DNA of 64,000 nucleotides, taken from Geosiphon pyriformis uo1 (lineage: Eukaryota; Fungi; Glomeromycota). Numbering within the stretch: position 1 is the first letter of the stretch; every line of letters begins with the position of its first letter. Under the pieces are notes generated by a model. That model was given only the letters and a program-made list of their open reading frames with translations. It did not search any database and was not told the DNA's origin. Location of the stretch: positions 79,453 through 143,452 of the forward strand of contig JAAOMT010000235.1 of assembly GCA_016748015.1 (NCBI GenBank). Reading direction: 5' to 3'. Positions 4,927 to 51,750 of this stretch are shown here, in pieces. A program made the position numbers and the translations under genes.

Positions 4927-4934
4927 AAAAAAAA

Positions 4935-6859: not shown

Positions 6860-6879
6860 AAGGTAACTATAGAGTTAAA

Positions 6880-11967: not shown

Positions 11968-14512
<2,545 letters not shown>

Positions 14513-14534: not shown

Positions 14535-15178
14535 TGTTACAGGTTGGAGTAACAAGCTAACGGATAGCAAGGAAGAACAGGATTGTAAGGTGATGAAAGG
14601 AATCAAAGAGAATTCAACTTTTAAAGAGTGAATTGAATAAGTATGGATTCAATGTGTGAGATCAGTCTCATAAAATATCTCAGTTGCTATACTTTTCAAA
14701 GATAACCAGGGAATCTGAAAGTAGAAAAATAGTCCGTACTGTCAACAAATGATCACACTTGGTATAATTCTATGCTTCACATCAGCGCTCTTAGAATTCA
14801 ATATCAAGTATCAGATGTGCTCTTCAGTCATGTTTTATTCAATAATCTCCAAATGTTGCAATTACACAATTCAGGAAAAGAGTAAGGAATAACCAACAAG
14901 TAATCTTTTATCTTTAAGATGTTCAGATACTTGAAAGTAGGGAAAGAGAAATTAGTGATAAGAGAAGGATTGAGATGAAGATGTTATTTTATTTCTTTAT
15001 TTCTTTGATTTCTTCATGCCTTTCTACAGTTAAGAGATTCATTGCTTATATAGCTATCAAAAGTGGTCAATAATCAGATCAACAACTAGGTCAATGATCA
15101 GGTCAATGATTACTTACTAAAAATAGAGTGGCTAATACATGTGATAATTAATAAGAAGTATAAGTTTCAACTGTAACA
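14535..15178 (-). mobile_element. Solo LTR of Gypsy family A
   Basis: TGTTAC...GTAACA termini; 4-bp TSD ATAG (14531-14534 / 15179-15182); homologous to the other LTRs. Confidence 0.92.
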
Positions 15179-16094
15179 ATAGGTACCCAGAAGATCATTG
15201 AGCAGAGGAAAACCTGGGAAGCTAAGCTTGTTGGCCTACCACAGAACTGTACTGCACACTATCTGAGTAACACTCTGGATCAAATCAAAGCCTGATCTTG
15301 CTTTATTCCAAGAACTAGCAGAAACTATACTAGAATGGGATGTGCTTACATAGGGTTTGATAGTAAAGCCAGTCACCACAATGCTACCAATAAGCCCTTG
15401 GTAATTGGGGACACTTTGGTTTACTGGGTGCCTACTAATGCTAAAGAGTGTCATTTTTGTTATCAGATAAGACACTTGGTCTCAAATTGCCCTACTTTAC
15501 TTAAAAAAAAGGAGAGGAATACCAAGAAAGCTACCAACAACATATGGTTAGCCAAATTGTATGTTAAAAAGAATGTACCAAAAGAACATATCAAGGCCTT
15601 TGAAGGAAGATCATATGCTGAAATGGTGGCACTAAATCCATCTAATAATAGGTACAATGCAAACCCAAGTGGGTCTCAAAAAGCTGGCTTACATGTGAAC
15701 AACCAAGAGGGCCAACAGAAAAAAGGAACAAACCAGCCATGGAGATTTGAAATTGATAAATTGAGACAACAGGTGAATGAAATGGCTAAACTACTAAATG
15801 CTGTGGCTTTAAAGCTTGGAGTAACAGTGGAAAAAAAAGATGAAGGCAAAGTGGTAAATCAACCACCAAGTCATATATCAGAGAAAAAGAAAGAAGGGAA
15901 TAATAAAAAAGCAAAACAGTATATGTCTTCCAAACATACCTTAGAGGAAAAAAAAGAGGCATACAACCCAGAGAAAAAAATAAATGATATTAAAAAAGCC
16001 CTGGAACCTATTATAATACTGCTAAAACAAGTAGAGAAACAGAGTAACTGGAATGGTGCTACAGCTGGGGAATCTAAATCTATGGAAACAGATG

Positions 16095-19000: not shown

Positions 19001-19238
19001 AGCAAGATCACAGATTTGTTGGTTAGATTGAACAGTAATGATATTGCTGGAATGACTACAAAAATCAGACTAGCCAACTTGCAAGCACAGAGATGGTCAG
19101 CTTATAGTATACTTGAATATTCCACAAATGAACAATCTAAGCCAGGAGTTAATCTAATAGCAAACATCATGCAGATAATGAATGAAAGAGGCATCTTATT
19201 CAAAAGCTCTGGTAACACATATGGGGTGCCTGAATTCT
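16095..19238 (+). pseudogene. LINE copy 3 ORF2, APE and RT part (RNase H at 24250-24940 and 42484-43027; C-terminus 45413-45917)
   Basis: IGTINVRGLNNPGK, VAGDLN, QDMKKAYDSV, GLDQGETSSP; later ISTDGSL, KTEAKAVLLALE, NEMANKLAK. Confidence 0.9.
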
Positions 19239-24249: not shown

Positions 24250-27054
24250 GTGCCTGAATCCTCAAGACCACATGCACATTTAATTGAGACAGTCATAGCT
24301 CCAGGTGTAGCCTACACTAAAGTTAGAGGTTTACTAAGGAAAGAAAACATTTTGTATTTACATCAGGTTTAAAACAAGGATAGATTGTTAATAAAATGGA
24401 TGGACTTCACAAGGAAGTACAGACAAAATGACAGTGGTAGAATTCCCAAATGGTTTAAGATTTTAGAGTCTACAATCATTATAGATGAACACAGGAACAT
24501 TAATGTAACCCAATGTGAAGCAGTGGGGATACACAAAATAGATAACCAAATACCAGATAACCTAAATACAATACAAAAGAACTCTATTTACATCCAAATT
24601 CTTGATGCTCTATTACCACAATGGAGAGATGTGCAAGATAAGTTGAGGCTCAGAAAAGAAATAGAAATATCAACAGATGGATCACTGGTAAAAGCTGGTT
24701 TTGAGAATGCTAGAGGAGCAGCCACTTTTGTGACTCATGAAATAGAGGCCAACTTTGGTATAGCAGTTAATGGAACTTTATTATCAACAAAGACTGAAGC
24801 AAAAGCTGTATTATTGGCTTTAGAAGCAGTGCCTTATAAATGCAAACTGACATTGAACACAGATAGTTAGGCAGTAGTGTCAACAGCTCAAAAATGGTTG
24901 TCCAAAAATTCTCCCTTGTCTATTAGGAATCAGCTCAAAAAAAAAAAAAGATCATTGAATACTCTTTCTCTCCTAAATTTCATGACCACAAATAGAGCTA
25001 AGAGTAAAAAAGTTGCAAATGTTACTTTTCCTATAGTGACTAATAAAGTTTCAACACGAAAGGGTCTCTCTGTTATTGAAGCAGCTAGACAAAATGTTCT
25101 GGCAACATTTCCTTTAAAAAATAATAGTAATAAGCTGCCTTTAGTGGCTTCTGGTTCATTTTCTTCACCTTTGGCTGGTAGTTCTTCTTCAGTCAAAGTT
25201 CCTTCAAAAAAGCCCAAAGATTTTTAATAACAGACCAGTCAACAAGTTGGTCTTTCCTGCTCTCACCACTCCCACTATTACTTCTACTATTACTGCTTCA
25301 CAAATGGCCGTGAAAGCCAAAAATTCCAAAAAACAGTAGCAGGCAGTCACAACTGCTATGGTCATACTGAACTCCTTTGTGGTTCCAAATGAGATCTTCA
25401 GTAAGATCTTCACAGCAGCAGCCAGTCCACTTCCTGATATGGATGGCAACAGCAGTGGCCCATCTCCCAAGATGGGCCAAGATCAACCACTGGCTGTGTT
25501 GCCTGATGTGGTAATCTCTGGCAGATCATTGCCAATCCCAGTAGCAAAACAGTCTATCAATCCAGATGATCTCAAAAATTGGGCTGATCAGATGGAAATG
25601 GAATTAACTGTCTCTCCCCCAGTTTCTGGTGCTGCTGATGGTGGTGCTTAGAAAAATGTGAATGGTTGTCAGAGGTTCTCTGGTTGGGTGGCCTCCAATC
25701 TAGTACCTGGAGCTACATTCAAGATCAAAATGGCCCTGCTTGGTTTCTTGTTCCAGTTACTGCCTGGTTGTATTGGGCTTAAATCAGTTTCACAAGATGC
25801 TGTTAAGTTGTTCTGTGTGGAATTTGCATCTCAGGAGTGTTTAAATGGTGCCACCAAAATGGCCATCAGTAATGAGGTGTTTTTGACCACTCTTAAGATT
25901 GTATGGTTTTCTGATGTGGCCTCTGTTTCTTTCCCTTCCTTGTCAGTTGCACTGCACGATGTACTTTTGGGTACCTCTTCTGATGACATCAAAACTGCTT
26001 TTGGCATTTTTGGTGTTGTCACTTCTGTTAAGTTGAAGCCTGCTGGCTTATGGCAATATGCTGTGGTTAATTTTAAGGACATTTCTTCTGCTACTGCTGC
26101 TCTCTTTAACTGGTTTGTATTGGTCAGAAAAGATAGTGTTAGGATTCTTTCTGTTGCCAACCAAAAGGAGGTTATTTCCTCAAGAGATGCATTCAAAGCT
26201 AAGTTGGTCAATCTTCCATTTGGCTGTACTGCCTTTGAGATAAGTGATTTGGTCTTCCAAGTTGGTGGCCGTACATGTTTCATTCTTCACTCCCCTGAAT
26301 CTTATTGATGTCAACACTTTGCTGTGGTTACATTTGATTCTTTGGAATCTCTAAATGTTGCTGTGTCAAAAACTGGTACCTTGCATGGTTGTCGCATCTG
26401 GTGGGAAACTTCACTGCTACAGGTGTCAAGACTTGAATCATTTGGCTGTGAACTGCAAGAAGTTGCCTCCTCTCCCATCTAAACTCCCTTCCAACACCTT
26501 TGGTGGCCCCAAAAATTTCAAATCTTCATTTGTTGGATCTAAATCTTATGCCAAGACTGCTGCTTTTGTGGTTCCTCCTGGTGCTGCTGCTGCTGATATG
26601 GAGTTGGATCTTGGTGATTCTCCCAAAACTACAACACCTGTGTTGCCTGCTGTCTCTTATGTTCCCAATACTGCTGTTGAATCTAGGTTAATGAACTATC
26701 TGTGTTGATTAAATCCTTGGTTGAACCTGTTGGTGCTCTGGTTGCTATAGATGTGTCAGTTAAGGAATGTATAGATGGGTTGGCTAAGCAAAATAAAGGC
26801 TTGGCTGCTGTTGCCATCATGATGCAGAAAAGATTAACACGTCTTGAGACAATAAGTGAATGGATTTGCTTGGAGAATGGATCAGATGTTGATGACATGG
26901 TTGATGATGTTGATCATGATGATGATGAAGATAGAGATTTTTCAGTTTATGATAACACTTTTGATGTCATTGTTACAGTTGAAACCCATAATTTTATTAG
27001 TTATCACATGTATTAGTCACTAATGTCATAATTAGCCATTCTATTTTTAGATAG

Positions 27055-27138
27055 TGATCATTGACCTGATCAATAACCTGACCATTGACTTGATTATTGA
27101 CCTGATCATTGACCTAGTCATTGACCTGGTCATTGACT
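27055..27138 (+). repeat. Tandem 12-mer (TGATCATTGACC)n in the LTR, upstream of the TATA box
   Basis: About 7 degenerate units here; unit number differs among LTR copies. Confidence 0.85.
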
Positions 27139-27150
27139 ACTTTCAATAGC

Positions 27151-27210
27151 TATATAAGTGATAAGTCTCTTAGCTGTAGAAAATCATCTTTCAGACAAGA
27201 ATCAAATAAA
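27151..27210 (+). promoter_or_regulatory. Putative LTR TATA box (TATATAA 27151-27157) and poly(A) signal (AATAAA 27205-27210)
   Basis: Motifs in the expected order after the repeat array; GCTATATAAG-like box in most LTR copies. Confidence 0.5.
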
Positions 27211-27665
27211 TAAAAATAACAACTTTCATCTCAATCACTCTTTTATTACTAATTTCCCTTTCCCTACCTTTAAGTATCCGAACATCTTAGGATAAAAGAT
27301 TACTTGTTGGCCTTTTCCTGTTTGAATAATTGTAGTATTTGAAGACTATTTGTATAAACGTGACTGAAGAGCACAAGTTGATACCTGATATTGAATTCTA
27401 AGAGTGCTGACATAAAGGCATAGAATTAATATCAGCAGTGATCAATTGTTGACAGTATGGACTATTCCTCTACCTTCAGATTCCCTTGTTACCTTTTGAA
27501 AAGAATAGTGACTGAGATATTTTATGAGACTGATCTCATACATTGAATCCATACTCATTCAATTTGTTCATTGAAGTTGAATCCCCTTTGATTATTTCCA
27601 TCACTCTACAATCCTGTTCTCCCTTGCTATCCATTAGCTTGTTACTCCAACCCATAACATAAAAG

Positions 27666-27684
27666 TGGTGCTCTCTGTGAGGTT
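27666..27684 (+). promoter_or_regulatory. Primer-binding site, probably for elongator tRNA-Met
   Basis: TGGTGCTC(C/T)CTGTGAGGTT 6 nt after the LTR; also at 39833-39851 (-) and 49835-49853. Complement AACCTCACAGGGAGCACCA resembles the eukaryotic elongator tRNA-Met 3' end. Confidence 0.7.
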
Positions 27685-27711
27685 GTCAAAATTCACTTAT
27701 TTTCTCATTGT

Positions 27712-29256
27712 ATGGGTGATTACTCATATCTGCCACAGCAATCAGAAGAACACTATGCAGTACACAACAGAAACAACCTAGATTTCATTGAACTTAATTC
27801 TCTGCCCTCCTCCTTGATCTGCTTTCCCATTGAAGAACAATCCAGCAGACAATTCCAAGACTTTTGGAACTGGTTCCTGAATATGCATTCAGCTAAAACC
27901 TACACAACTTATACAATCTATTACTTTGATCAAGCTTATTTTGAAGATAACTTTAAAGAAAGAAACAACAGTATCAATCAGCTCTTATATTCTACAACCT
28001 TTGAACAACAGCCCCCTGATTTCGAATATCTGAATCATCAAATCCACATTTGGATTGTTGCCCATCAATCAACAGTAACTCCCCTTGAAACAGAAGAAGA
28101 AAGCTACCAAACAGTCCCTATTTTTGATCTCTTCTTAAGTGAATCAGAGCACTCCACACAAACAGTAACTCCTGAACCAATGGCCCAAGATCCAATGCAA
28201 GTAAACATCCTGGCTGCCCTCCAAGGCATACAAACTGCTTTGGGACAAAGAAACAACACCCCACTACTCCTATTCAGAGGTGATGCCCAAGATCTAATTG
28301 AATGGTTGGACAATTTTGAAAGAGCAGCCACTGCAAACCAGTATGATGATGAATATAAGTTCCAAATCGTTGGTGGCTACCTCCAAGGCTCCCCTGCTAC
28401 CTGGTTTTCACAAGAAACCAATGCTGGTGCTCAACAAAGAATTGTTAAATGGACCCCAGCAAATATTGGAGAAAACAACACCTCTTTCACTACCCGGTTT
28501 GAAAACAAATTTAGAACCCCCATCTTAATATCCAAATGGTGCATGGAATTAGAAAGAAGAACCCAAGGTCCTGGTGAAATTGTGACCAAATATGCCAAAG
28601 CAATTAGAAAACTCATCAAGCGTGTAGACTCTGGTAGAAACTGGACTAAAGAGCAAAAGATCCACTCCTTCACAAAAGGATTGAGAACTGATTTATCATA
28701 TGCTTTTTGGCCTCTCTTGGCTTTAAAAGATAATCCCACCATGGATATGGCCATTGAACTCGCCCAAAGAATTGAAGACAATCAAAGAATGCATTTGAGA
28801 TCCACACTTCTAGTTTTTGCTCCTGCTCCTGTTATGGCTCCTACTCCTCAAATAGCCACTACTTCTTTTGCTGCCCAGACACAAGATCCAAATGAACAAT
28901 TAATAGATAGACTTACAGCAAATCTTGCTTGGCTATTAGAACCATTAGCCCAAGCAGTCAGAGATAACTAGCAACCACAAAGACCCAGATTTGAAAACCG
29001 TTTTAATTAGCCCCAGCAACCCCCTTACCAAAGACAGCAAAATCGTGGCCCTCCTGTGTGTTATAGATGTGGATTAACTGGACATTTTTCCAGAGATTGC
29101 AACAATCCTCCACTGCCTCCTCCAGCTCCCAGAAACAATGACAACCAAAACAACAGACCCAACAACAACAACAATGTTCCCAATCATGCCAACATCAATT
29201 TCTTTGGAGAGGATCCCCTAGTTGAAGCCACTGTTTATCAGCCTTTAAACTGGTAG
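27712..29256 (+). pseudogene. gag: Gypsy gag (N-terminal extension, capsid domain, CCHC knuckle)
   Basis: LFRGDAQDLIEWLDNFERAA, YLQGSPATWF, QGPGEIVTKYA, CYRCGLTGHFSRDC; internal stops from C>T. Confidence 0.9.
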
Positions 29257-29290
29257 GCACACCTCCAAAGGGTGAGAGTGCAAGCCAACC
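29244..29290 (+). promoter_or_regulatory. -1 ribosomal frameshift signal (T TTA AAC plus downstream stem-loop)
   Basis: Heptamer is in the gag frame just before TGG TAG; the -1 frame is continuous with the protease ORF; conserved at 38336-38342 (-) and 51411-51417. Confidence 0.75.
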
Positions 29291-31913
29291 AGAAGAAAAC
29301 CTCTTTTATGCTTTTAACTTAACTGATGATGACCATGACATGGATGAACTAGTAATCAACACCTCAGAACCAACCAGAAAGAAGAAAAAAGCCAAGGTTG
29401 ATTTTGTTCTAGACCCCAACAAAGCCTCAACTTCTGCCACTGATAACAATGAGCCACCAAAGGCTAAAGTTTTTAAGAATCCTTCAAAGTTGGAACCCCC
29501 AGAAATTGTACAAAAATCTGGACCCTATTCCTTTGTTAAAGATCTCATGGAAACCCCAGCACATATTACCTTTGGCCAGTTAATGACCCACCTACAGTTC
29601 AGAAAGGATCTTCACAAATCCTTGATTCCAAAGAAAAAGACACCAAAAACCAACAAGTGTCCTCACCAAGCTGTACTTGCTGACAACAGCAATGTCACCC
29701 CTCTGATTTGTAAAGCCCAAGTGGCTGGATACTTCATTGACTTAATTCTGGACAGTGGATCATCTGTTAGTGTCATTGCCAAACACTTCTTGGAAGCAAT
29801 TGGTAGAAAGATTGATGAACCTTTCACCAGACCAATGACCAATGTACATGGTGACAAAAAGAAAGGACTGGGTATTGCCAAAGCTGTTCCTGTCTGCATC
29901 AATGGAATCAGCATTGAAACTGACATGGAAGTTTCTGAAGCCAAAGAATACACCATCATTGTTGGCAATAAATGGCTCAAGAAAGCAAAAGCTTTGCTTG
30001 ATTATGAACTTTGTGAATTAACCATCAGATGTGGTGAGAAACCCATTGTGGTTAAGTGTCACCATTGGAGAACTCCCCCAGTACCCAAACAAAACCAAAA
30101 AGAAGAACAATCAGATGAATCAGATGATGAAGAGAGCGATAAAGAAGAAGAACAAGAAGAGCAAGAAGAAACTACTGAACTCGCTTATACCACCTTCACC
30201 AGCAATGGCAAACCACTGGACAATGTTAAAGCAGACAAAGAAAGAATCATTGTAAATGGCAAGCTAATCTGCTGGCCTTATTATGATATTCTTAGAAGAA
30301 CCTTTGAAAGAAAACCTGGCAAGAAAGCCAAATACAGTTTTTGGTGACATGGTCCTTGTGCCCAGTGTTGGTGCAACAAACTCTTGTATTCTCCAAGTGA
30401 TGAATGTAAATCATGCCTGATCTATTACAGAGATTGGAAACCAATCAGTTTGATACCCAGAGAAGAATTGAAAGAAGTACAGAATTCCTTTGAGAATGAA
30501 CCACCTGAGATTCAATCACTGGTTGTAGAACAAAAAGAACCCTCCCCAGAAGAAAGAAAAATAAACATTGAAAATTTGCTGGCTAAAAATAGCCAAAAAA
30601 GGTGATACCCCTGGACATACTCATGTAATACAACACACCATCACCACCAGAGAAACTTGACCCATCTATTTGAAGCCTTATCAATCCAATCAGCACAATG
30701 ATGAGTTAATCAAGAAAGAGATAAACTGGATGAAAGAACTTGGATTCATACAAGAAACCAAGAGTGAATGGGCTTTCCCAGTTGTAGTAGTATCCAAGAA
30801 AGATGGAATACTATGCTTCTGTGTTGACTACTGCCAATTAAATGCCATCACTGAAAGAGACATGTACCCACTTTTCAAGATTGATGCAATGTTAGACCAA
30901 TTCAAAGATGCTGCTTTCTTCTCAACCATTGACTTAACTGCTGGATTCTGGCAAGTAGAGATGGATCCAGAAAGCAGAAAGAAAACTGCCTTCATCACCA
31001 AGTATGGCATCTATGAATTCACAGTCATGCCTTTTGGTCTCACCAACACCCCTCCCATCTTTCAATGCTTAATGGATAAAGTATTTGAATCAGTCAAGGA
31101 AAACTTTGTTCTAGTCTATTTGGACGACATAATAGTATACTCAAAAACCTGGGATGAACACCTGGAACATTTGCAAAAGGTTTTTGACCTGGCCTCAAGA
31201 TCAACCCAATCAAATCTTTCTTTGAAAGACAATCCACCCAATTTCTTGGTCATCTTATCACAAAAAATGGAATTTTTCCTGACCCAGCCAAAGTTGAAAA
31301 AGTCCAAAACATCAAACAACCAATGAACATTTATGAACTACACTCTTTTCTTGGTTTGGCCTCTTATTATTGCAAATTTGTCAAGAATTTCTCCAAAATC
31401 GCCTCTTCTCTCAATCAGCTACTCAGGAAAAATGTCAATTACCATTGGAAAACACATCAGCAAAAAGCCTTTGAAACTTTAAAGGAAAAACTGGTTACAG
31501 AACTTATCCTCAAGCAACCTGATCTAGATCAACTCTTTATCCTCCATACTGATGCATCTGGTTTTGGACTTGGTGCTGTTCTCTTCCAGAAAGATAAAGA
31601 TGGCAAAAAACATGCCATAGTTTATGCCAGTAGAACCCTTTCCCTAGCAGAACAGAACTATTCAGTCACTGAACAAGAATGCTTAGCAGTAGTATGGTCC
31701 ACCAGTTACTGAAGTAAGTATCTTCTTGGTGTGAAGTTTTTGGTAGTAACAGATCACCAAGCTTTGGTTTGGCTGCACAACAAAAAGAGGCTAGAACACA
31801 AACAGATAACTCACTGGATACTCCACTTGGATGAATTTGACTATGATATTCAACATCACAAAGAAGCTAATCATCAAAATGCTGATGCTCTTTCCAGACT
31901 TACCATCCAGTGA
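29250..31913 (+). pseudogene. pol: Gypsy pol: protease, RT, RNase H (ends at a stop after NADALSRLTIQ)
   Basis: LILDSGSS, FCVDY, IDLTAGFWQV, KTAF, MPFGL, VYLDD, TDASG, EQECLAVV, VTDHQAL, NADALSR. Confidence 0.92.
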
Positions 31914-31980
31914 CAGAACAAACCTCTCAAACCAAACCAACTTAATTATTAATAATTCCCACTTTTTGACAAACACGATA

Positions 31981-34900
31981 ATGAACTTGGACAACTACTC
32001 TGCCTTAATAGAATTTTTGGGTAAAGAACAATACCCACCGAAATACACATGACAACAAAGAGAACATTTGCGCAAACAATCAAATTTCTATTTAATTCAC
32101 TAGAACCAACTTTATAAAAAAAATAGAAAAGATCCTAACCACCCCCAGAGAGTCATCAGATTTGAAGAAAGAGAAATTGTGATCTACAATATGCACACTA
32201 ATCTATTAGCTGGACACTTTGGGAAAACAAAAACAATTCAGAAAACTCTAACTCACTATTATTGGCCTACCTTGGGAAAAGACATTGCTGAATACATCAA
32301 AACCTGTAATATCTGCCAAAGAAGAAGAAAACCCAATCACAAAGAAGATATCCATCCAATCTCTGTTGGTCAACCCTTTAACAGAATTGGTATAGATGTT
32401 GTTGGATCTTTAACAATAACTCCTGATGGCAACAGATACATTATCACAGCTACTGACTATTTTACAAAGTGGGTAGAAGCAAGAGCCACCCCAGACCAAA
32501 CAGCAGTTTCAATAGCCAATTTCATTTATAAAGATATCATTTGTTGCCATGGCTGCCCCAAAGAACTTTTATCTGACAGAGGAAGAGCTTTTCTTAGTAC
32601 ACTTGTTAAAGAACTTTGCAGAAAAATGGGAATACATCACAAACTTTCCTCTCCTTATTACCCCTAAACAAATGGCCTAGTGGAACATTTCAATAGAACA
32701 CTACGTGAAACCCTAGCCAAAACCAGCAAAGAAACAAACTTATGGGACAAAGTACTGCCTTCAGCCTTGTTTGCTTATAGAACTGTGAATTATGACATAA
32801 TAAGTTATGAACCCTTTTATCTATTCTATGGATGAATGGCAATCCTACCAATAGAAACTGACATTGAAACAATACCCTTTGAACAAATAACAATAAGAAA
32901 TTACAAAGACACTTTGCAAAGAAGACTTGGTACTATTCTTGACTCATTAGTAGAAGCACAGATAATTGTCTTTGAAAAGATAAAACAATTCCAAGAGAAG
33001 CTTAAAAAAAAGAAAACATATTGTTATGGGTTGGAGTAACAAGCTAACAGATAGCAAGGAAGAACAGGATTGTAGGGTGATGGAATTAATCAAAAGGGGA
33101 ATTCAACTTTAAAGAGTGAATTGAATGAGTATGGATTCAATGTGTGAGATCAGTCTTATAAAATATCTCAGTTGCTATTCTTTTCAAAGGTAACTGGGGA
33201 ATTTGAAGGTAGAGGGATAGTCCGTACTGTCAACAATTGATCACCACTGGTATAATTCTATGCTTCATGTCGGCACTCTTAGAATTCAATATCAGGTATC
33301 AACTTGTGCTTTTCAGTCACATTTATTCAAATAATCTTCAAATGCTACAATTATATACATCAGGAAAAGGCCAACAAGTAATCTTTTATTCAAAAGATGT
33401 TTAGATACTTGAAGGTAGAGAAAGGGAAATTAGCAATAAGAAAATGTTTGAAATGAAAGTTTGTTATTTTATTTCTTTGATTGTCTTGATTCCTTACATT
33501 GATCATGTCTTTCTACAGCTAAGGAAATCATCACTTATATAGTTATCTAAAGTGGTCAACGATCACTATCTAAAAATAGGGTGGCTAATTATATAACATC
33601 AGTGGCTAATACATGTGATAACTAATAAAAACTATGGGTTTCAACCATAACATCATCCTCTCCAAAGAGATTAAGCTCCGGTGAAATCAAGCTATTTATG
33701 AGATAGTCTATGTGAAGGGTTTTGTCTAACTCAAAACTAACTAATTTGTTGAAGTCTTTTGTGGATAAGGTATATAATACTTGAGATGAAATAAGTTTTG
33801 TATCCAAGAGACCAAATCTTTGTATAAGAGTTCTGGCTCTTCTAGCAATAGTCAAAACTCTTGGAACATCTAATCGTATAATGCCCAAATTTCCACTTGT
33901 ATTTCTGAAGTTGTTTTCTTCATGAGCTTCATGTCTTCTATGATTTCACCAAGACAACCATAGAGTTTTAGTTGTCTTCCATATGACAAGTTTTTGTCTA
34001 TGGGCAAGATTTCTTGTATCATTTTTCCAATTGTGCTAGAAGGTGAAAGTATTGCTGCTGTTATGCTTTTTAGCAGGTATTTATCCATTTTGCCACCAAT
34101 TCTTTCCCTTCTGGTAGTTGTTTTCTTTGGTCTGATAACAGTGTGAGTTCCACTGTTGTCTGTTATAGTGGTTTGTTTTCTGATAGTCAGAGTAGCATTT
34201 GGATAGTTCTTGATCCAATACTCATGGAGAGTATAGAAAGCATTTTGAATGTTTTGATCCAGGAAGATACCTCTGTTTTGGGAATGGTGCATTTATTTAT
34301 ATCTGATTTTTACTGATCATTTGGGTTGGTATTACCACAACAGGTAACCAATCAGATTGTTTGTGATATTTCTTGAGTCACGTGCCATGAACAGGGCAAT
34401 CACTGAATATTGTTCCATATTGATCTTGTAGAATATATGAACCATTGTTCAAAACTTTGTTGACTAAAAAAGGTCCTTTCCAGCAGCTGGAGAATTTATC
34501 ACCATAGACATTGTCTCTGTCTGAATGGTATTCCAAAACTAAGTCACCAATACTTAAGGAAAGTGTTTTATAGGTCTTTTTCTTTTTGAGCTTCTCTTGG
34601 AACTGTTTTATCTTTTCAAAGGCAATTATCCGTGCTTCTACCAATGAGTCAAGAATGGTACCAAGTCTTCTTTGCAAAATGTTTTTGTAATCTCCTATTG
34701 TTATTTCTTCAAAAAGTATTGTTTCTATTGGTAGAGTTGCCATTCATCCATAGAGCAGATAAAAGGGTTCATAACTTGTTATGTCATGATTTACAGTTCT
34801 GTAGACAAACAAAGCTGAAGGCAATACTTTGTCCCAGAGGTTGGTTTTTTTACTGGTTTTGGCTAAAGTTTCACATAATGTTCTATTGAATGTTCCACTA

Positions 34901-37900
34901 GGCCATTTGTTTGAGGGTGGTAAGGGGAGGAAAGTTTATGACGTATTTCCATTTTCCTACAAAGTTCTTCAACCAGTATACTAAAAAAAGCTCTTCCTCT
35001 ATCAGATAAAGGTTTTTTGGGGCAGCCGTGACAACAGATAATATCATCATAAATAAAATTGGCAATTGAGACTGCTGTTTGATCTGGGGTGGCTCTTGCT
35101 TCTACCCACTTTGTAAAATAGTCGGTAGCTGTGATAATGTATCTGTTGCCATCAGGAGTTACTGTTAAAGGTCCAACAACATCTATACCAATTCTGTCAA
35201 ATGGTTGACCAACAGAGATCAGATGGATATCTTCCTTGTGATTGGGTTTTCCTCTTCTTTGGCAGGTATCACAGGTTTTGATGTATTCAGCAATGTCTTT
35301 TCCCAAGGTAGGCCAATAATAGTGAGCTAAAGTTTTCTGAATTGTTTTTGTTTTTCCAAAGTGTCCAGCTAATGGATTAGTGTGCATATTGTAGATCACA
35401 ATTTCTCTTTCTTCAAATCTGATAACTCTTTAGGGGCGGTCAGGATCTTTTTTATTTCTTTTATATAACTGGTTCTGGCAAATCAAATAGAAATTTGATT
35501 GTTTGCACAAATGTTCTCTTTGCTGTCGATTATAGTCCAGCGGGTATTGTCCTTTACTCAAAAATTCCATTAAGGCAGAGTAGTTGTCCAAGTCCATTAT
35601 CATGTTTGTTTGTGGGGGAGTTACAAATAATTAAGTTGGTTTGGTTTGAGAGGGTTTTACTATTACTAGATGGTAAGTCTGGAGAGAGCGTCGGCGTTTT
35701 GATAATTAGCTCCTTTGTGGTGTTGAATGTCATAGTTGAATTCATCCAAGTGGAGTATCCAGTGAGTTATCCATTTATGTTCCAGGTTTCTTTTGTTGTG
35801 TAGCCAAACCAAAGCTTGGTGATCTGTTACCACCAAAAATTTTACACCCTTAAGATATTTGTCCCAGTAGCTGGTAGCCCAAACTACTGCTAAGCATTCT
35901 TGCTCAGTGACTGAGTAGTTCCTTTCTGCTGGTGTGAGAATTCTACTGGCATATGCTACGGCATGTTCCCTGCCATCTTCGTCTTTCTGGAAAAAAACAG
36001 CACCAAGTCCATAGCCAGATGCATCAGTATGGAGGATAAAAGGTTGATCCAGATTAGGTTGCATGAAGATGGGTTCTGTAACCAGTTTTTCTTTCAGAAT
36101 TTCAAATGCTTTTTGTTGATGAGTGCCCCAGTGATAATTGATGTTTTTCCTAAGTAGCTGATTAAGAGGAGCAGCAATTTTGGAGAAATCTTTGACAAAC
36201 TTGCAATAATAAGAGGCCAAACCAAGAAAAGAGCGTAGTTTATAAACATTCATTGGTTGTCTAATGTTTTGAACTTTTTCAATTTTGGCTGGATCAGGGA
36301 AGATTCCATCTTTTGTAATAAGATGGCCAAAGAACTGGATGAATTGACATCCAAAGAATGATTTGATTAGATTGATCTTGAGACCAGCATTTCTAAGGAG
36401 GTCAAAAACCTTTTGCAAATGTTTAAGGTGTTCATCCCAGGTTTTTGAGTATACCATTATGTCGTTCAAGTAGACTAGAACAAAGTTTTCTTTTACTGAT
36501 TCAAATACTTTGTCCATTAAGCATTGAAAGGTGGGAGGAGCATTTGTGAGACCAAAAGGCATGACTGTGAATTTGTAGATGCCATACTTGGTGATGAAGG
36601 CAGTTTTCTTTCTGCTTTCTGGATCCATCTCTACTTGCCAGAATCCAGCAGTTAAGTCAATGGTTGAGAAGAAAGCGGCACCATAGAATTGGTCTAGTAT
36701 TGCATCAATCTTGGGAAGTGGGTACATGTCTCTTTCAGTAATGGCATTTAATTGGTGATAGTCAACACAAAAGCGTAGGGTTCCTCCTTTCTTGGATATC
36801 ACTACAACCGGGAATGCCCATTCACTCTTGGTTTCCTGTATGAATCCAAGGTTTTTCATTTGGGTTATTTCCTTTTTGATAAATTCATCATTGCACTGGT
36901 TGGATTGATAGGGCTTCAAATGGATGGGGCAAGTTTCTCTGGTAATGATGGTGTGTTGTATCACATGTGTACATCCAGGAGTTTCATCTTCTTTTGAGAT
37001 AACTGGGTTGTTTCTAGCCAGCAGGTTTTCAATGTCTATCTTTCTTTCTTCTGGAGAGAGTTCTCTTTGTTCTACAACCAGTGATTGGATTTCAGATGGT
37101 TCGTTTTCAAAGGACTTTTGGACTTCTTTTATTTCCTCTTGGGGTATCAAGCTGATTGGTTCCCAATCTTTGTAATAGATCAGACAGGACATGCATTTAT
37201 TGTTAGAAGAATACAATGGTTTGTCGCACCAGCACCAGGCACAAGGACCATGCCACCAATAACTGTATTTGGCTTTCTTGCCTGGCTTTCTGTTAAAAGT
37301 TCTTCTGAGCATGTCATAATAAGGCCAGCAGATCAGCTTGCCATTGACAATAATTCCTTCTTTATCTGCCTTGACATTATCCAGTGGTTTGCCATTACTG
37401 GTAAAGATGGTATAGGCGAGTTTAGCAGTTTCTTTTTGTTCTTCTTGTTTTTCTTCTTCCTCACTTTCTTCATTATCTGATTTGTCTAATTCATTTTCTT
37501 CTGGGCTCTGCTTGGGTACTGGGGGAGTTGTCCAATGGCAATATTTAACCACAATGGGTTTCTCATCACATCTGATGGTTAGTTCACAAAGTTCATAATC
37601 AAGCTTTCTTGAGCCATTCATTGTCAACAATGATGATGTATTCTTTCACTTCAGATACTTCCATATCAGTTTCAATGCTGATGCCATTGATGCGGACAGG
37701 AATAGCTTTGGCTATGCCAAGCCCTTTCTTCTTATCACTATGCACATTGGTCATTGGTCGTGTGGATGGTTCATCAATTTTTCTGCCAATTGCTTCAAGA
37801 AAGTGTTTAACAATAACACTAACAGATGATCCACTGTCTAGGATCAAATTGATGAAGTAGCCAGCCACTTGGGCTTTGCAAATTAGAGGAGTGACATTGC

Positions 37901-40789
37901 TATTGTCAGCAAGTTCAGCTTGGCAAGAGCGTTTGTTGGTTTTGGGTGTCTTTTTCTTTGGAATCAGAGATTTGTGAAGATCTTTTCTGAATTGTGGATG
38001 GGTCATCAATTGGCCAAAGGTTATATGTGCTGGGGTTTCCATGAGGTCTTTGACAACAGAATAGGGGCCGGATTTTTGTACTATTTCTGGGGGTTCCAAC
38101 TTTGGAGGGTTTTTGAAAACTTTAGCTTTTGGTGGTTCATTGTTGTCAGCAGTTGATGTAGAAGCTTTATTGGGGTCCAGAATGAAATCAACTTTGGCTT
38201 TCTTCTTTCTTGTGGATTCAGAGGGGTTGATTGCTAATTCATCCATGTCATGGTCATCATCAGTTAAGTTAAAAGCGTAAAAGGGGTTTTCTTCTGGTTG
38301 GCTTGCACTCTCATCCTTTGGAGGTGTGCCTACCAGTTTAAAGGCTGATAAACAGTGGCTTCAACTAGGGGATCCTCTCCAAAGAAATTGATGTTGGTAT
38401 GATTGGGCATCATTGTTTCTGGGAACTGGTGGAGGCAGTAGAGGATTGTTGCAATTTCTTGAAAAGTGTCCAGTTAATACACAGCGATAGCATACAGGTG
38501 GGCCACAATTTTGTTGTCTTTGATAAGATGGTTGCTGGGACTGATTGAAGCATGGTTCAAATCTGGGTCTTTGTGGTTGTTGATTTTCTCTCTAATAACC
38601 AGGCAAGATTTGCTGTAAGTCTGTCTATTAACTGTTCATTTGAATCTTGAGTGTGAGTGGCAAAAGAAGTAGCAGCCATTTGAGGGGCAGGAGCAGGAGC
38701 AAAAACTGGTAGTGTGGATCCCAAGTGCATCCTTTGGTTATCTTCAATTCTTTGTGCTAATTCAATGACCATATCCATGGTGGGGTTATCTTTCAGGGCC
38801 AGGAGGAGCCAGAGCATACAATAGATCAGTTTTCAATCCTTTTGTGAAGGAGTGAATTTTCTGCTCTTCTGTCCAATTTCTCCCAGAGTCTACACGTTTG
38901 ATTAGCTTTCTAATAGCTTTGGCATATTCAGTCACTACTTCTCCAGGGCCTTGGGTTCTTCTTTCCAATTTCATGTACCATTTGGATATTAATATTGGGG
39001 TTCTGAACTTGGCCTCAAATTGGGTAGTGAAAGAGGTATTTTCTTCTCCAGCATTAATTGGTGTCCATCTGATTATTCTGTGTTGAGCATTGGCATCTGT
39101 TTCTTGTGAGAACCAGGTAGCAGAAGAGCCTTGGAGGTAGCCACCAACAATTTGGAACTTGTATTCTTCATTATACTGGTTGGCTGTGGCAGCTCTCTCA
39201 AAATCATCCAACCATTCAATTGGATCTTGTGCATCACCTCTAAATAGTGGTAGTGGGGTATTGTTTCTTCTTTCTAGAGCAGTTTGTATACCTTGGAGGG
39301 TGGCCAGAATGTTTGCTTGCATGGGGTCATTAGCCATTGGTTCAGGGGTAACTGTTTGTGTATACGAGTCTGATTCACTTGATAAAAGATCAAAAACAGG
39401 GGCAGTTTGGTAGCTTTCTTCTTCTGTTTCAAAGAGAGTTTCAGTTACTTGATGGGCAGCAATCCAGATGTGGATTTGATGATTCAGATATTCGAAATCA
39501 GGAGGCTGTTGTTCAAAGGTTGCAGAATATAAGAGCTGATTGATACTGTTGTTTCTTTCTTCAAAGTCGTTTTCAAAATAAGCTTGGTCAAAGTAATAGG
39601 TTGTATAAGCTGTGTAGGTTTTAGCTGAATACTCGTTCATGAACCAGTTCCAAAAGTCTTGGAATTGTCTACTGGATTGTTCTTCAAGGGGGAAGCAGAT
39701 CAAGCAGGAGGGCAGAAGATTAAGTTCAATAAAATCTAGGTCATTTCTGTTGTGTGCTACAAAGTGTTCTTCTGATTGCTGTGGCAGATATGAGTAATCA
39801 CCCATACAATGAGGGAATAAGTGAATTTTGACAACCTCACAGGGAGCACCACTTTTATGTTATGGATTGGAGTAACAAGCTAACAGATAGCAAGAGAGAA
39901 CAGAATTGTAGGGTGATGGAATTAATCAAAAGGGGAATTCAACTTTAAAGAGCAAATTGAATGAGTATGGATTCAATGTGTGAGATCAGTCTCATAAAAT
40001 ATTTCAGTTGCTATTCTTTTCAAAGGTAACTGAGGAATCTGAAGGTAGAGGGATAGTCTGTACTGTCAACAATTGATCACCACTGGTATAATTCTATGCC
40101 TCACATCGGTGCTCTTAAAATTTAATATCAGGTATCAACTTGTGCTTTTCAGTCACGTTTATTCAAATAATCTTCAAATGCTACAATTATATATGTCAGG
40201 AAAAGGCCAACAAGTAATTTTTTATCCAAAAGATGTTCAGATACTTGAAAGTAGGGAAAGGGAAATTAGCGATAAGAGAATGTCTGAGATGGAAGTTTGT
40301 TATTTTATTTCTTTGATTGTCTTGATTCCTTACATTGATCATGTCTTTCAACAGCTAAGGGAATCATCGCTTATATAGTTATCTAAAGTGGTCAATGACC
40401 AGGTCAATGATCAGGTCAATGATCACTATCTAAAAATAGGGTGGCTAATTATATGACATCAGTGTCTAATACATGTAATAACTAATAAAAACTATGGGTT
40501 TCAACCATAACAATATAAAACACTTTCCTTAAGTGTTGGTGACTTAGTTTTAGAATACCGTTCAGACAGAGACAATGTCTATGGTGATAAATTCTCTAGC
40601 TGGTGAAAAAGACTCTTTATAGTCAACAAAGTTTTGAACAATGGTTCTTATATCTTACAAGATCAATATGGAACAATCTTCAATGATCACTCTGTTCATG
40701 GCACACAACTCAAGAAATATTACAAACGACCTGATTGGTTATCTGTTGTAGTAATACTGACCCAAATGATCAACAAAAATCAGATATAA
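31981..40789 (+). pseudogene. Gypsy integrase as a separate ORF (31981-33021 plus 40517-40789)
   Basis: HTN..AGHFG / CNIC zinc finger, GIDVVG, DYFTKW, SDRG, TNGLVEHFN, VHGTQLKKY; no chromodomain. Confidence 0.88.
33022..40512 (-). mobile_element. Ty3/Gypsy family A copy 2, complete (5' LTR 39858-40512, 3' LTR 33022-33652)
   Basis: TSD ATAT 33018-33021 / 40513-40516; gag from 39805; pol ORFs 37599-38246 and 35666-37630; IN 35603-34297; ORF-X 34292-33622. Confidence 0.95.
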
Positions 40790-40830: not shown

Positions 40831-41487
40831 ATGAACAATTATTTCCTAGATCAAAACATTTAAAATGCTTTCTACACTCTCCATGAGTACTGGATCAAAA
40901 ATTATCCAAATGCTACTCTGACCATTGGAAAACAAACCACCATAACTGATAACAGTGGAACACATACTGTTATTAGACCAAAGAAAACCACTACCAGAAG
41001 AGAAAGAATTGGTAGCAAAATGGATAAGTATTTGCTAAAAAGCATAACAGCAGCAATACTTATATCTTCCATGACAATTGGAAAAACGATTAAGGAAATC
41101 TTGCCCATAGACAAAAACTTGTCATATGAAAGGCAAGTAAAACTCTATGGTCATCTTGGTGAAATCATAGAAGAAATGAAGTTCATAAAGAAAACAACTT
41201 CAGAGATACAAGTGGAAATTTTGGGCATTATACGTTTAGATGTCCCAAAAGTTTTGACCATTGCAAGAAGAGCCAAAACTCTTATACAAAGATTTGGTCT
41301 CTTGGATACAAAGCTTATTTCGCCTCAAGTACTATACACTCTATCCACAAAAGACTTCAACAAACTAGTTAGTTTTGAGTTAAACAAAACACTTCAATTA
41401 GAATACCTTATAAATAGCTTGATTTTGCTGGAGCTCAATCTCTTTGGAGAGGATGATGTTATGGTTGAAATCCATAATTTTTATTAG
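40831..41487 (+). pseudogene. Gypsy accessory ORF-X (about 218 aa, function unknown), overlapping the PPT and 3' LTR
   Basis: ATG 40831 (MNNYFLDQNI...), one internal TAA, ends ELNLFGEDDVMVEIHNFY* inside the LTR; homologues at 33622-34292, 58351-58985 and 59623-60280. Confidence 0.75.
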
Positions 41488-43027
41488 TTATCACATGTAT
41501 TAGTCACTGATGTCATATAATTAGCCACTCTATTTTTAGATAGTGATTATTGACCTGATCAATGACCTGACTGTTGACCTGATTATTGACCTGATCATTG
41601 ACCTGATCAATGATCTGATCATTGACCTAGTCGTTGACCTGGTCGTTGACCACTTTCAATAGCTATATAAGCAATGAGTCTCTTAGCTGTAGAAAATCAT
41701 CTTTCAAATAAATAAAAATAACAACTTTCATCTCAATTACTCTCTTATTACTAATTTTTCTTTCTCTACCTTCAAGTATCTGAACATCTTAGGATAAAAG
41801 ATTACTTGTTGGCCTTTTTCTGTTTGAATAATTGTAGTATTTGAAGACTATTTGTATAAACGTGACTGAAGAACACAAGTTGATACCTGATATTGAATTC
41901 TAAAAGCGCTGATATGAAGGCATAGAATTAATACCAGTGGTGATCAATTGTTGACAGTATGGACTATCCCTCTACCTTTAGATTCCCTTGTTACCTTTTG
42001 AAAAGAATAGCAACTAAGATATTTTATGAGACTGATCTCGCACATTGAATCCATACTCATTCAATTTGCTCATTGAAGTTGAATCCCCTTTGATTATTTC
42101 CATCACCCTACAATCCTGTTCTCCCTTGCTATCTGTTAGCTTGTTACTCCAACTCGTAACATCATGATGCACCTATGAGAAGATCAGTTTCCAAGAATCA
42201 AATCCAGTCCTGATCAGACTGCTAAGTGGATGAGTAATATGGTTAAGAATAGTCATAAGCTTGTTAGCATTATGAGTAAGATGTACAAATTAGAAATGTT
42301 TGATACATTGAGTAGCAAAAGTAGTACTAGTATGTAGTTAGAGCTTTCCACTAAGTGGTTAGCTGCATTTTGTAAACTTTGTATTATTGGATGAACTGAC
42401 TTTATGAAAGCACCAACTTTATTGTTTGACAAAACTAATAAACAATCATTGTGGCTACACGTTAACATAAAAAAAAAAAAAAACAGCTCAAAACTCCTAA
42501 TTGACACACATAAAATGCAATTAAAGCAGTGATAGGAGAAAAAAGAATTGATCTTAACATAAACAAAGTGGCTGCACATACTGGTATATCTTAAAAATGA
42601 GATGGCTAACAAACTAGCCAAAGAAGCTACTACTTTTGACACAGTGGTGTGGACTTACAATGCTAAGAACATCAGTTATATCCCTTCTTGCAGAGGAGTT
42701 GAATTAGATCTGAATATCAGACATTTTCTGAGCCAACAGACTGGAATTCAAGGAGCCTTGGATTGGATTAGCAATAACAAAGTACAAAAGACAGTAGGGT
42801 CTTTGGACCAGAGAGTAGACTGGAAAAGCACAACCAAAGTGTAGAACTAGGATGGTAAAATGTCATCAGGCTTCATCTCAGCTGGTTTTTCAGTAATGCA
42901 TACATTTATTATGAAATCATTCCACAATATGTTGCCAATGGCAGAGGTGCTATACAACAGATGTTTTTTAGTGTATATGAACAATCTGTGCAAAGTGTGT
43001 TACACAGAAGTTGAAACCAACCAAAAC

Positions 43028-45412: not shown

Positions 45413-45903
45413 AAGATGCTGATAGATGATGTAAGGAATGAGTGGATGTGGTGCTTATCAAAGGCTGTGAGAGGGAAACATAAAATCTTGGACCCTGGTG
45501 AGAGGGTTGTTCTGTCTAATGAGTACATCAGGACAATGCCCAACATAGATCTGCTATGAAAAGACTGATCAATGAGCAATTTGAAAGAATCAGAGGATTA
45601 ATAATAATGTCTTAATTAAGGTGTGTAAATAGGCTGTGACTCAAGCAAGGAATAGACTATGGAGAGAACATTGTAGGCTACAAACTAAGTGGGAAAAAAT
45701 GATAGATATTGATAACAGAATTAAGAAAAACCTATCACAGGTGACCAGTATATACAAATCGCCTAAAAATAATGGTAATAGTGGTGGTAACTCCAATAGT
45801 AAAATGAATGATGGATTCCAACATTGTAATAAGATATTGACTGATGTTTTGGGTAGTAGAATTACTTTAAGTAATAGTGTAATACCTCTTAGATTTTCTG
45901 GTT

Positions 45904-49137: not shown

Positions 49138-51750
49138 TGTTATGGTTGAAACTTATACTTCTTATTAATTATTACATATATTAGCCACTGATGTCATATA
49201 ATTAACCACTCTATTTTTAGAAAGTGATTATTGATCTGATCAATAACTTGACCATTGACCTGATCATTGACCTGATTATTGACCTGATTATTGACCTGAT
49301 CATTGACCTAATCATTGACCACTTTTGATAGCTATATAAGCAATAAATCTCTTAGTTGTAGAAATACATGTAATAAAATAACAACTTTCATCTCAATCAT
49401 TCTCTTATCACTAATTTCTCTTTCCCTACCTTCAAGTATCTGAACATCTTGGGATAAAAATTACTTGTTGGCATTTACCTACCCTTTTCCTGACTTGTAT
49501 AATTGTAGTATTTGAAGATTATTAAATAAAACATGACTGAAGAGTACATCTAATACCTGATATTAAATTCTAAGAGCACCAATGTGAGGCATAGAATTAT
49601 ACCAAGTGTGATTATTTGTTGACAGTATGGACTATTCTTCTACCTTCAGATTTCCTGGTTATTTTTGAAAAGTATAGCAACTGAGATATTTTATGAGACT
49701 GATCTCACACATTGAATTCATACTTATTCAATTTGTTCTTTGAAGTTGAAATCCTTTTGATTTTTTTCATCACTCTACTATCTTGTTCTCTCTTGCTATC
49801 TGTTAGCTTGTTATTCCAACTTGTAACATAAAAGTGGTGCTCCCTGTAAGATTGTCAAAATCCACTTTGTTTTTTATTGTATGGGTAATTATTTATACCT
49901 GCCACAACAATCAGAAGAACACTTTGAAGCACACAACAAAAATGATCTAAACTTTATTGAACTCAATTTTTTGCCCTCCTGCTTGATTTGCTTCCCCATT
50001 GAAAAACAATCTAGTAGACAATTCCAAGACTTTTGGAACTGGTTTCTGAACAAGCATTCAGCTGAAATCTACATAGCCTATACAACTTATTACTTTAACC
50101 AAGCTTATTTTGAAGACAACTTTAAAGAAAAAAATAACAGCATCAATCAGCTTTTATATTTCACAACCTTTGAACAACAGCCCCCTGATTCTGAATACCT
50201 GAATCATCAAATTTACATTTGGATTGCTGCCTATTAACTAGCTAAAACACCCTTTGAAACAGAAGAAGAAAGCTATTAAACTGCTCTTGTTTTTGACCCC
50301 TTTTCAAGTGAATCAGAACATTCCACACAAACAGTTACTCCTGAACCAATGGCTTAAGACCCTATGCAACAAAACATTTTGGTCACTCTTTAAGGCATAC
50401 AAACTGCTTTAGAACAAAGAAACAATACTCCATTACCATTATTCAGAGGTAATGTCCAAGATCCTATTAAATGGTTGGATGATTTTGAAAGAGCTGCTAC
50501 AGCCAACCAATATAATAATGAATACAAGTTCCAAATTGTTGGTGGCTATCTTCAGGGCTCTTCTGCTACTTGGTTCTTACAAAAAACCAATGCCAATGCT
50601 TAGCAAAAAATCATTAGATAAACACTGGCAAATGCTGAAGAAGATTATACATATTTTACTATCCAGTTTGAAATAAAATTTAAAACTCCTATCTTAATAT
50701 TCAAATGGTGTATGGAATAAAAAAGAAAAACTCAAGGCCTTGGTGAAGTTGTGATTGAATATGCCAAAGCTATTAGAAAACTAATCAAATGAGTAGACTT
50801 TGAAAGAAAAACAGAAAATTCACTCCTTTACAAAAAAATTGAAAACTGATCTCTCATATGCTCTTTGGCTTCTTTTGGCCCTGAAAAATAATCCCACAAT
50901 GGACATGGCCATTGAACTTGCCCAATGAATTAAGGATAACTAAAGGATGGATTTAGAATTCACACTACCAGTTTTTGCTCCTGCTCCTGTTATGGCCCTT
51001 GCTTCTCAAATGGCTGCTACTTCTTTCACTGTTCAGACTCCAGATCCCAATGAACAATTGATAGATAGGCTTATAGCTAATTTTGCCTAGTTATTAGAAC
51101 TCTTAGCCCAAGCAGTCAGAGATAATCAGCAACTACAAAGACACTGATTTGAACCCCATTTTAATCAGCCCCAGCAACTTTCTTATCAAAGACAGCAAAA
51201 TCATAGCCCACCTGTGTGCTATTATTGTGAATTAACTGGACACTTTTCTAGAGATTGCAACAATCCTCTATTGCCTTCTCTAGTTTCTAGAAACAATGAC
51301 AATTAAACTAACAGAACCATTAACAACAATGCCCCCAATTAAAGACCCAATCATGCCAACATTAATTTCTTTGGAGAGGATTTCTTAGTTGAAGCCACTG
51401 TTTATTAGCTTTTAAACTGGTAGGTGCATCTTCAAAGGGTAAGAGTACAAGCCAACCAGAAAAAAACCCCTTTTATGCTTTTAATCTAACTAATGATGTC
51501 CATAATATAGATGAATTAGCAATCAACACCTCTGAATCAACAAGAAAAAAGAAAAAAGCCAAGGTTGATTTTGTTCTGGACCCAAACAAAGCATTCAAAT
51601 CAACTGCTGATAACAATAAGCCACCAAAGGCTAAAGTTTTTAAAAATCTTCCAAAGTTGGAACTCCCAGAAATAGTACAAAAATCTGGCACCTATTTTGT
51701 TGTTAAAAATCTCATGGAAATCCCAGCACACATTATATTTGGCCAACTAA
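49138..51750 (+). mobile_element. Gypsy family A copy 3, 5' part: LTR 49138-49828, PBS, heavily decayed gag and start of pol
   Basis: Inserted after ATAT in an ORF1-only fragment (48945-49137); gag from 49881; TTTAAAC at 51411. Confidence 0.85.

What the first reader, a model, noticed from the sequence alone, without database searches (positions are those of the whole stretch)
27472..27533. LTR hides a split complement of the primer tRNA-Met anticodon arm around a hairpin
Seen: the LTR sense strand has ACCTTCAGATT (27472-27482) and TTATGAGACTGA (27522-27533). In minus-strand copy 2 the + strand reads TCAGTCTCATAA (39986-39997)...AATCTGAAGGT (40036-40046), and the ~39-nt spacer can form a stem (CTCAGTTGC/GTAACTGAG in the consensus). 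Known (recalled; the host tRNA is not in the window): eukaryotic elongator tRNA-Met contains UCAGUCUCAUAAUCUGAAGGU (anticodon arm plus variable loop), and the PBS 130 nt downstream points to the same tRNA. The break falls at positions 37/38, the canonical tRNA intron site. Precedents are the Ty1/Ty3 extended primer contacts and the tRNA-Lys3-gene-like sequence reported in HIV-1 U3/R. Inference: a multipartite primer-binding or strand-transfer element, or the relic of a captured intron-containing tRNA gene.
Basis: partly seen in the sequence, partly recalled or inferred. Interest (0 to 1): 0.8.

Follow-up and report, generated by a model that had tools for sequence, protein, structure and literature searches.

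The report
Retrotransposon LTR matches its primer's anticodon
A fungal jumping gene carries, inside its terminal repeat, two short boxes that together match the whole anticodon arm of a methionine tRNA, likely the one that starts its copying, and they are predicted to give that primer a second grip, a new variant of a trick known from yeast elements and HIV.

Summary
Seven LTR copies of a decayed Ty3/gypsy family (closest proteins are from Geosiphon pyriformis) carry two boxes, 38-39 nt apart, that together complement positions 27-47 of elongator-type tRNA-Met. [quoted passage not shown] A match this good arose in 6 of 179,723 LTR shuffles and in 0 of 1,720 real-sequence tiles.

The break is ambiguous (36/37 to 38/39). 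The spacer hairpin is weak and shows no covariation. Nothing else of a tRNA gene is present.

Promoter and poly(A)-like motifs place the boxes most likely in U5, so an auxiliary primer-docking site is the best reading (about 0.5). A functionless captured piece of the primer is the main rival. Preferential conservation was not shown (p 0.08-0.20), the host tRNA was not available, and no other species' LTR with the boxes was found.

Extra primer contacts are known in Ty1, Ty3, Gypsy and HIV-1. The scan noted a similar U5 match (tRNA-Trp) in another genome. Verdict: a new variant of a known kind.

The parts
26971..27659 (+). 5' LTR of element 1 (copy c1), TG...CA ends
   Evidence: paired with copy c3 by a shared 4-bp target-site duplication
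27151..27157 (+). TATA-like motif, present in 7 of 7 copies 309-331 nt upstream of box 1; predicted end of U3
27205..27210 (+). AATAAA motif, present in 7 of 7 copies 263-279 nt upstream of box 1; no AATAAA downstream of the boxes; predicted R region
27472..27482 (+). Box 1, complement of tRNA-Met(e) positions 37-47
27483..27521 (+). 38-39 nt spacer; weak hairpin, looped out when the tRNA arm is modelled on both boxes
27522..27533 (+). Box 2, complement of tRNA-Met(e) positions 27-38, including the anticodon
27660..27665 (+). 6-nt gap between LTR end and PBS, identical in 3 of 3 PBS-bearing copies
27666..27682 (+). Primer-binding site, best fit among tRNAs tested: elongator-type tRNA-Met 3' end
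27658..28971 (+). gag frame (Retrotrans_gag)
29226..32667 (+). broken pol pieces in the order protease, RT, RNase H, integrase
33022..40512 (-). Element 2, a full-length copy nested in element 1; LTRs c2 (boxes 40036-40046 and 39986-39997, PBS ending at 39851) and c6 (boxes 33200-33210 and 33150-33161)
41457..42161 (+). 3' LTR of element 1 (c3), preceded by a purine tract; boxes at 41974-41984 and 42024-42035
49138..49828 (+). LTR c4 with PBS; boxes at 49642-49652 and 49691-49702
58986..59654 (-). 3' LTR c5; boxes at 59163-59173 and 59113-59124
14535..15178 (-). solo LTR c7 with 4-bp target-site duplication; boxes at 14712-14722 and 14662-14673

Best explanation
Two boxes in this Ty3/gypsy LTR complement the whole anticodon arm of elongator-type tRNA-Met and likely act as an auxiliary primer-docking site in U5, so that the tRNA whose 3' end likely pairs with the PBS 132 nt downstream would also be held by its anticodon arm. 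Shown: the complementarity, its rarity by chance, its presence in all seven copies, and the PBS fit to non-host tRNA-Met. Inferred: the boxes are in U5 and so in the 5' leader only; the arm opens and forms about 20 base pairs in two helices with the spacer looped out as a three-way junction; this would stabilise selection of an elongator tRNA and the initiation complex, and RT would later displace the arm as it copies U5. The boxes may have arisen by templated capture from the primer; origin and present use are separate questions.
For: Chance 6 of 179,723 shuffles, 0 of 1,720 real tiles; 20 other tRNA genes reach at most 16 nt. PBS fits eukaryote-type tRNA-Met at 12 of 14 (copy c2) and 11 of 14 (c1) for three genes, 13 of 14 with G-U, and the human tRNA-Met(e) primer at 12 of 14 for c2 (read by eye). 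The match is antisense to the tRNA on the genomic-RNA strand and stops at the arm plus variable loop. Modelled binding of the isolated 21-nt arm gains 13-23 kcal/mol in all 7 copies. TATA-like and AATAAA motifs lie upstream in 7 of 7. No transversion or indel in 161 box sites. Spurious antisense Geosiphon gene models keep the residues over box 2 in 4 of 4 and over box 1 in 3 of 3 further copies. Precedent: HIV-1 keeps a tRNA-Met PBS stably only with U5 changes complementary to the anticodon (PMC1797187 passages).
Against: Box columns are not significantly more conserved than the rest of U5: 19 of 23 invariant against 282 of 406, Fisher p 0.13; transversion/indel p 0.20; shared minor alleles p 0.08. 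Copies c5 and c6 share a pair-breaking change in box 1. The host tRNA set was not available, so the PBS could belong to another isotype, and c4 fits only 9-10 of 14. None of 87 related loci (26-52% identity) has a Met PBS with boxes, though none is a close relative. The U3/R/U5 map rests on motifs only. The energies use an unmodified arm outside the tRNA fold. In Drosophila Gypsy a second site anneals in vitro yet is dispensable for cDNA synthesis. The scan reads very many LTRs, so a 3e-5 event is not impossible.
Confidence: 0.5

Rival explanations
1. A functionless fossil: RT once switched onto or ran along its tRNA primer and left a copy of positions 27-47 in U5, later split by a 38-39 nt insertion and inherited by the family.
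For: The match is perfect, as templated capture would give; the 2-nt overlap of the boxes resembles a short duplication around an insertion; conservation is not above background; the spacer has no conserved structure.
Against: A run-on along the primer should also copy 48-58 next to the PBS, which is absent, and the piece lies upstream of the PBS, not after it. The boxes show no transversion or indel among copies that are 84-93% alike.
Confidence: 0.25
2. The boxes lie in R rather than U5, are present at both RNA ends, and let the primer bridge the ends or help minus-strand transfer, as described for Ty3, the Gypsy 3' site and HIV-1 U3-R.
For: Such bridges exist in Ty3 and Gypsy; fungal poly(A) signals can be degenerate (recalled); no RNA data locate the ends.
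Against: All AATAAA motifs are 117 nt or more upstream of box 1 in 7 of 7 copies.
Confidence: 0.1
3. Chance resemblance in a founder LTR, multiplied by transposition.
For: All copies descend from one family; the scan examines very many LTRs; the PBS isotype is not proven; no second species shows it.
Against: p about 3e-5 under a lenient definition, 0 of 1,720 real tiles; the match covers exactly the anticodon arm of the tRNA kind that the PBS fits.
Confidence: 0.1
4. Relic of a captured intron-containing tRNA-Met gene, or a Helenus-like tRNA-derived Pol III promoter.
For: An intron at 37/38 exists in one eukaryote-type tRNA-Met gene fetched here (L111, 17 nt), and 37/38 is one of three possible break registers.
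Against: No tRNA by ARAGORN or Rfam, no B box, no D-arm or T-arm match in gene order, tRNA sense lies on the minus strand, and the element is autonomous with a TATA-like promoter.
Confidence: 0.05

Closest known systems
HIV-1 U5 A-loop / anticodon contact, including engineered HIV-1 primed by tRNA-Met(e) (PMC1797187, passages read; Kang et al. 1997, title seen in its reference list)
   Same: U5 sequence complementary to the primer's anticodon, upstream of a full PBS; the same tRNA kind in the engineered virus, where U5 changes stabilise its use.
   Different: Here it is natural, in a fungal Ty3/gypsy element, covers 21 nt in two boxes and lies 130-190 nt from the PBS; function untested.
Drosophila Gypsy second tRNA-Lys,2 site (PMC1635307, passages read)
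   Same: [quoted passage not shown]
   Different: That site is near the RNA 3' end in env, bridges the ends in vitro and is dispensable for cDNA synthesis; here two boxes in the LTR, likely at the 5' end only.
Ty1 and Ty3 bipartite PBS (PMC5371799, PMC4974528, passages read)
   Same: Extra segments pair with inner parts of a Met tRNA primer.
   Different: They use initiator tRNA-Met, a short PBS and the T and D arms; here elongator-type, a 17-nt PBS and the anticodon arm.
tRNA-Lys3-gene-like sequence in HIV-1 U3-R (Piekna-Przybylska 2010, PMC2802660; title seen in reference lists only, details recalled)
   Same: Primer-related sequence embedded in the LTR.
   Different: It lies in U3-R and promotes strand transfer; here likely U5, and no gene-length similarity.
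Helenus TRIMs (PMC10886601, parts 1-2 of 6 and passages read)
   Same: tRNA-related sequence inside fungal LTRs.
   Different: Helenus are short, non-autonomous and keep A and B boxes; this element is autonomous and has no B box.
Half-tRNA priming of copia and Ty5 (PMC10886601, PMC5371799 passages)
   Same: Box 2 resembles a site for the anticodon stem-loop.
   Different: There the site replaces the PBS right after the LTR; here it is inside the LTR and a normal 3'-end PBS is present.

Membership tests
Ty3/gypsy LTR retrotransposon | gag, then protease-RT-RNase H-integrase | tested here: met
Ty3/gypsy LTR retrotransposon | paired LTRs with TG...CA ends, PBS, purine tract, target-site duplication | tested here: met
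   (4-bp duplications in 3 of 3 insertions checked)
Multipartite primer-binding site (Ty1, Ty3, Gypsy, HIV-1 A-loop) | extra segment complementary to an inner part of a tRNA, beyond chance | tested here: met
Multipartite primer-binding site (Ty1, Ty3, Gypsy, HIV-1 A-loop) | the extra segment and the PBS match the same host tRNA | tested here: inconclusive
   fits non-host tRNA-Met genes at 9-12 of 14; host genome not held
Multipartite primer-binding site (Ty1, Ty3, Gypsy, HIV-1 A-loop) | segment under purifying selection | tested here: inconclusive
   Fisher p 0.08-0.20 on 7 copies
Multipartite primer-binding site (Ty1, Ty3, Gypsy, HIV-1 A-loop) | tRNA anneals there and priming or packaging depends on it | not testable with these tools
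   needs annealing, probing and mutants
5'-3' tRNA bridge / strand-transfer element (Ty3, HIV-1 U3-R) | segment present at the RNA 3' end (U3 or R) | tested here: inconclusive
   motif positions point to U5; no transcript ends available
Helenus / TRIMp3 or captured tRNA gene | A and B boxes or gene-length tRNA similarity | tested here: not met
   (B-box pattern recalled)
Helenus / TRIMp3 or captured tRNA gene | short non-autonomous element | tested here: not met
   about 7.5 kb with gag and pol
Half-tRNA priming (copia, Ty5) | anticodon-arm site directly after the 5' LTR in place of a 3'-end PBS | tested here: not met
   a TGG-starting PBS follows the LTR in 3 of 3 5' LTRs

The most novel reading that the evidence does not exclude
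A natural retroelement has evolved a U5 clamp that opens and binds the entire anticodon arm of an elongator tRNA-Met through a three-way junction, with the helix break at the modified base 37, to pull its primer out of the translation pool: the wild counterpart of the U5 anticodon match that had to be engineered into HIV-1 to keep tRNA-Met(e) as primer.
Probability: 0.35. Interest if true: 0.65.

Novelty: new variant of a known kind. Interest (0 to 1): 0.45.

Why it matters
Contacts between a primer tRNA and the element outside the PBS have been worked out in only a few model elements. A 21-nt, two-box match to the anticodon arm in a high-copy fungal family is a longer and cleaner case, and it is easy to test by genome-wide conservation and in vitro annealing. 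It suggests that LTRs should be screened for complements of their own primer to learn how primers are chosen and switched. If it is only a fossil, it still records RT copying its primer into U5.

Tried and rejected
Host genome: not held, so no host tRNA scan and no genome-wide LTR set. A PBS-derived tRNA pattern found 0 matches in genome contigs; laying the sequencing contigs on a tRNA-Met gene gave no result; six PBS-derived terms found 0 papers.

Relatives: viral contigs gave 0 loci for the single protein and 9 distant loci for the alignment. The metagenome scan read only 3 of 64 parts and returned 78 loci at 34-52% identity. None of these 87 has a Met PBS with boxes; most lack a full LTR with PBS, so this is no test of conservation. 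The split pattern in viral contigs gave 16 loci (8 tRNA-Met-type arms without a gap, 8 gapped non-tRNA matches) and 23 loci with long gaps, none a tRNA. LTR-derived protein hits were 6 of 6 from Geosiphon.

Sequencing runs: no RNA holder listed. Contigs of X1 (10,878 laid) showed 40 of 209 variant rows, none in the boxes, and a depth peak over box 2, but the tool warns against reading depth and the rows reflect copy c1's own changes; not used as evidence.

L114 was cut one base out of register (3-4 of 14) and is left out of the PBS counts. The tree was the quick version only. A candidate D-arm-like stretch in the spacer, a 5-nt T-stem match after box 2 and an anti-PBS stretch near 27395 were seen but are short, vary among copies or depend on the host tRNA; not claimed. 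No supplements were opened; those of the AM-fungal TE and small-RNA papers might hold tRNA or LTR sequences.

Full report
Setting. The window is a nest of repeats. The finding lies in the LTR of a Ty3/gypsy element with gag, protease, RT, RNase H and integrase in that order. The closest named proteins are Geosiphon pyriformis gene models (84-87% for pol, up to 89% for gag); other pol relatives are at most 54% identical. A review of transposons in these fungi reports a striking LTR expansion in Geosiphonaceae (PMC11952901, passages). Seven LTR copies cover the region. Copies c1 and c3 bound one element, c2 and c6 a second element nested inside it, and c7 is a solo LTR; each has a 4-bp target-site duplication. 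Copies are 84-93% alike in the 3' part, and most differences among genomic copies are C>T or G>A (147 of 207 listed places). No host genome is held.

Observation. Box 1 is exact in 3 of 7 copies and box 2 in 6 of 7; the 5 changes in 161 sites are all C>T or G>A. Joined, the boxes are the complement of a contiguous 21-nt piece of elongator tRNA-Met: it stands in a published human tRNA-Met(e) primer (PMC1797187) and in 5 intronless eukaryote-type tRNA-Met(CAT) genes from contaminating contigs; a sixth has a 17-nt intron at 37/38. These genes were fetched with the box pattern, so they show what the arm is, not how common it is. By standard numbering box 2 covers 27-38 and box 1 covers 37-47. They overlap by two bases, so the break is not pinned to the intron site.

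Chance. I scored the best collinear two-piece exact complement of a whole tRNA-Met within 150 nt. The LTR scores 21. This was reached in 1 of 20,000 shuffles with a phage tRNA-Met and 6 of 179,723 with a eukaryote-type one, in 0 of 1,536 tiles of other retroelement loci and 0 of 184 tiles of the masked window. The 20 other tRNA genes on hand, mostly phage and bacterial, reach at most 16. The PBS, 132 nt past box 2, fits three eukaryote-type tRNA-Met genes at 12, 11 and 10 of 14 positions after TGG (copies c2, c1, c4) and a fourth at 11, 10 and 9; with G-U pairs c1 and c2 reach 13 of 14. That supports, but does not prove, that PBS and boxes address one tRNA: acceptor ends of some other isotypes are similar (recalled) and the host set is missing.

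Anatomy. A TATA-like motif lies 309-331 nt and an AATAAA 263-279 nt upstream of box 1 in all 7 copies; no AATAAA lies downstream. Short tandem repeats precede the TATA motif. The boxes are therefore most likely in a long U5, present only in the 5' leader. The spacer folds weakly: -1.2 to -5.8 kcal/mol, z below -2 in 2 of 7 copies. When the isolated 21-nt arm is co-folded with each copy, it pairs with both boxes and loops the spacer out, gaining 13-23 kcal/mol; this ignores base modifications and the tRNA's tertiary fold. Position 37 of this tRNA carries a bulky modification in eukaryotes (recalled), which would favour a helix break just here. No tRNA gene is seen: ARAGORN 0, no tRNA among 11 weak Rfam matches, no B box.

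Selection. Box columns are more often invariant than the rest of U5 (19 of 23 against 282 of 406) but not significantly so (p 0.13; 0.20 for transversions and indels; 0.08 for shared alleles). Antisense gene models from other Geosiphon copies keep the residues over box 2 in 4 of 4 and over box 1 in 3 of 3 that span it, but their flanks are also 76-85% identical. No other species gave an LTR hit, and 87 distant loci had no Met PBS with boxes, a weak test.

Mechanism. The best reading is an auxiliary primer site: the tRNA 3' end pairs with the PBS and the opened anticodon arm with the two boxes. HIV-1 can keep several tRNAs, tRNA-Met among them, when U5 is made complementary to the anticodon, and reverts without such changes (PMC1797187, passages). 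Ty1 and Ty3 use extra segments for the T and D arms of initiator tRNA-Met (PMC5371799, PMC4974528, passages). Drosophila Gypsy has a second 11-nt site for the anticodon and T stems that anneals but is dispensable for cDNA synthesis (PMC1635307, passages), a warning that binding need not mean need. The fossil reading (0.25), a role at both RNA ends (0.1), chance (0.1) and a tRNA-gene relic (0.05) are set out under rivals. Helenus (PMC10886601) and half-tRNA priming fail their membership tests. The HIV-1 U3-R paper was seen as a title only.

Novelty. Searches for this feature in a fungal or mycorrhizal Ty3/gypsy element found no description, within a library that lacks most subscription papers. 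The scan's own notes hold one finding of the same kind in another genome (tRNA-Trp in U5) and none on this sequence; these are unchecked leads. Verdict: real, a new variant of known extended primer contacts, function untested; interest 0.45.

Noticed in passing
window 31881-31950 (+), 35640-35695 (-), 61680-61734 (-): A stop codon follows RNase H at nearly the same place in 3 of 3 pol copies, so integrase looks like a separate frame; earlier scan notes on this genome say the same.
   Followed up: partly
window 37170-37260 (-): A Cys-rich CxxCxC...CxxC stretch lies between protease and RT and is partly conserved in metagenomic relatives.
   Followed up: no
window 27660-27665: The PBS starts 6 nt after the LTR end in 3 of 3 copies, longer than the usual 0-3 nt (recalled); the DNA end would need extra trimming.
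   Followed up: no
window 27050-27135: U3 holds a variable array of about 12-nt repeats, from almost none (c6) to several copies (c3).
   Followed up: no
window 4916-6859, 6879-9300, 12082-14501, 24955-26970 with 42162-42482, 43028-45415, 51765-55635: A second repeat family of about 2.4 kb, with no Pfam match in the frames tested; the LTR element has inserted into several of its copies.
   Followed up: no
window 1406-4927, 16150-19240, 19939-24218: LINE-like elements with RT, RNase H and an RRM/zinc-knuckle ORF1-like frame (46613-47380, 15296-16102).
   Followed up: no
window 27712-28179: The gag frame is open for about 155 codons upstream of the likely gag start, also in element 2.
   Followed up: no
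L009:974-1046: A phage contig carries a tRNA-Met whose anticodon and T arms look eukaryote-like.
   Followed up: no
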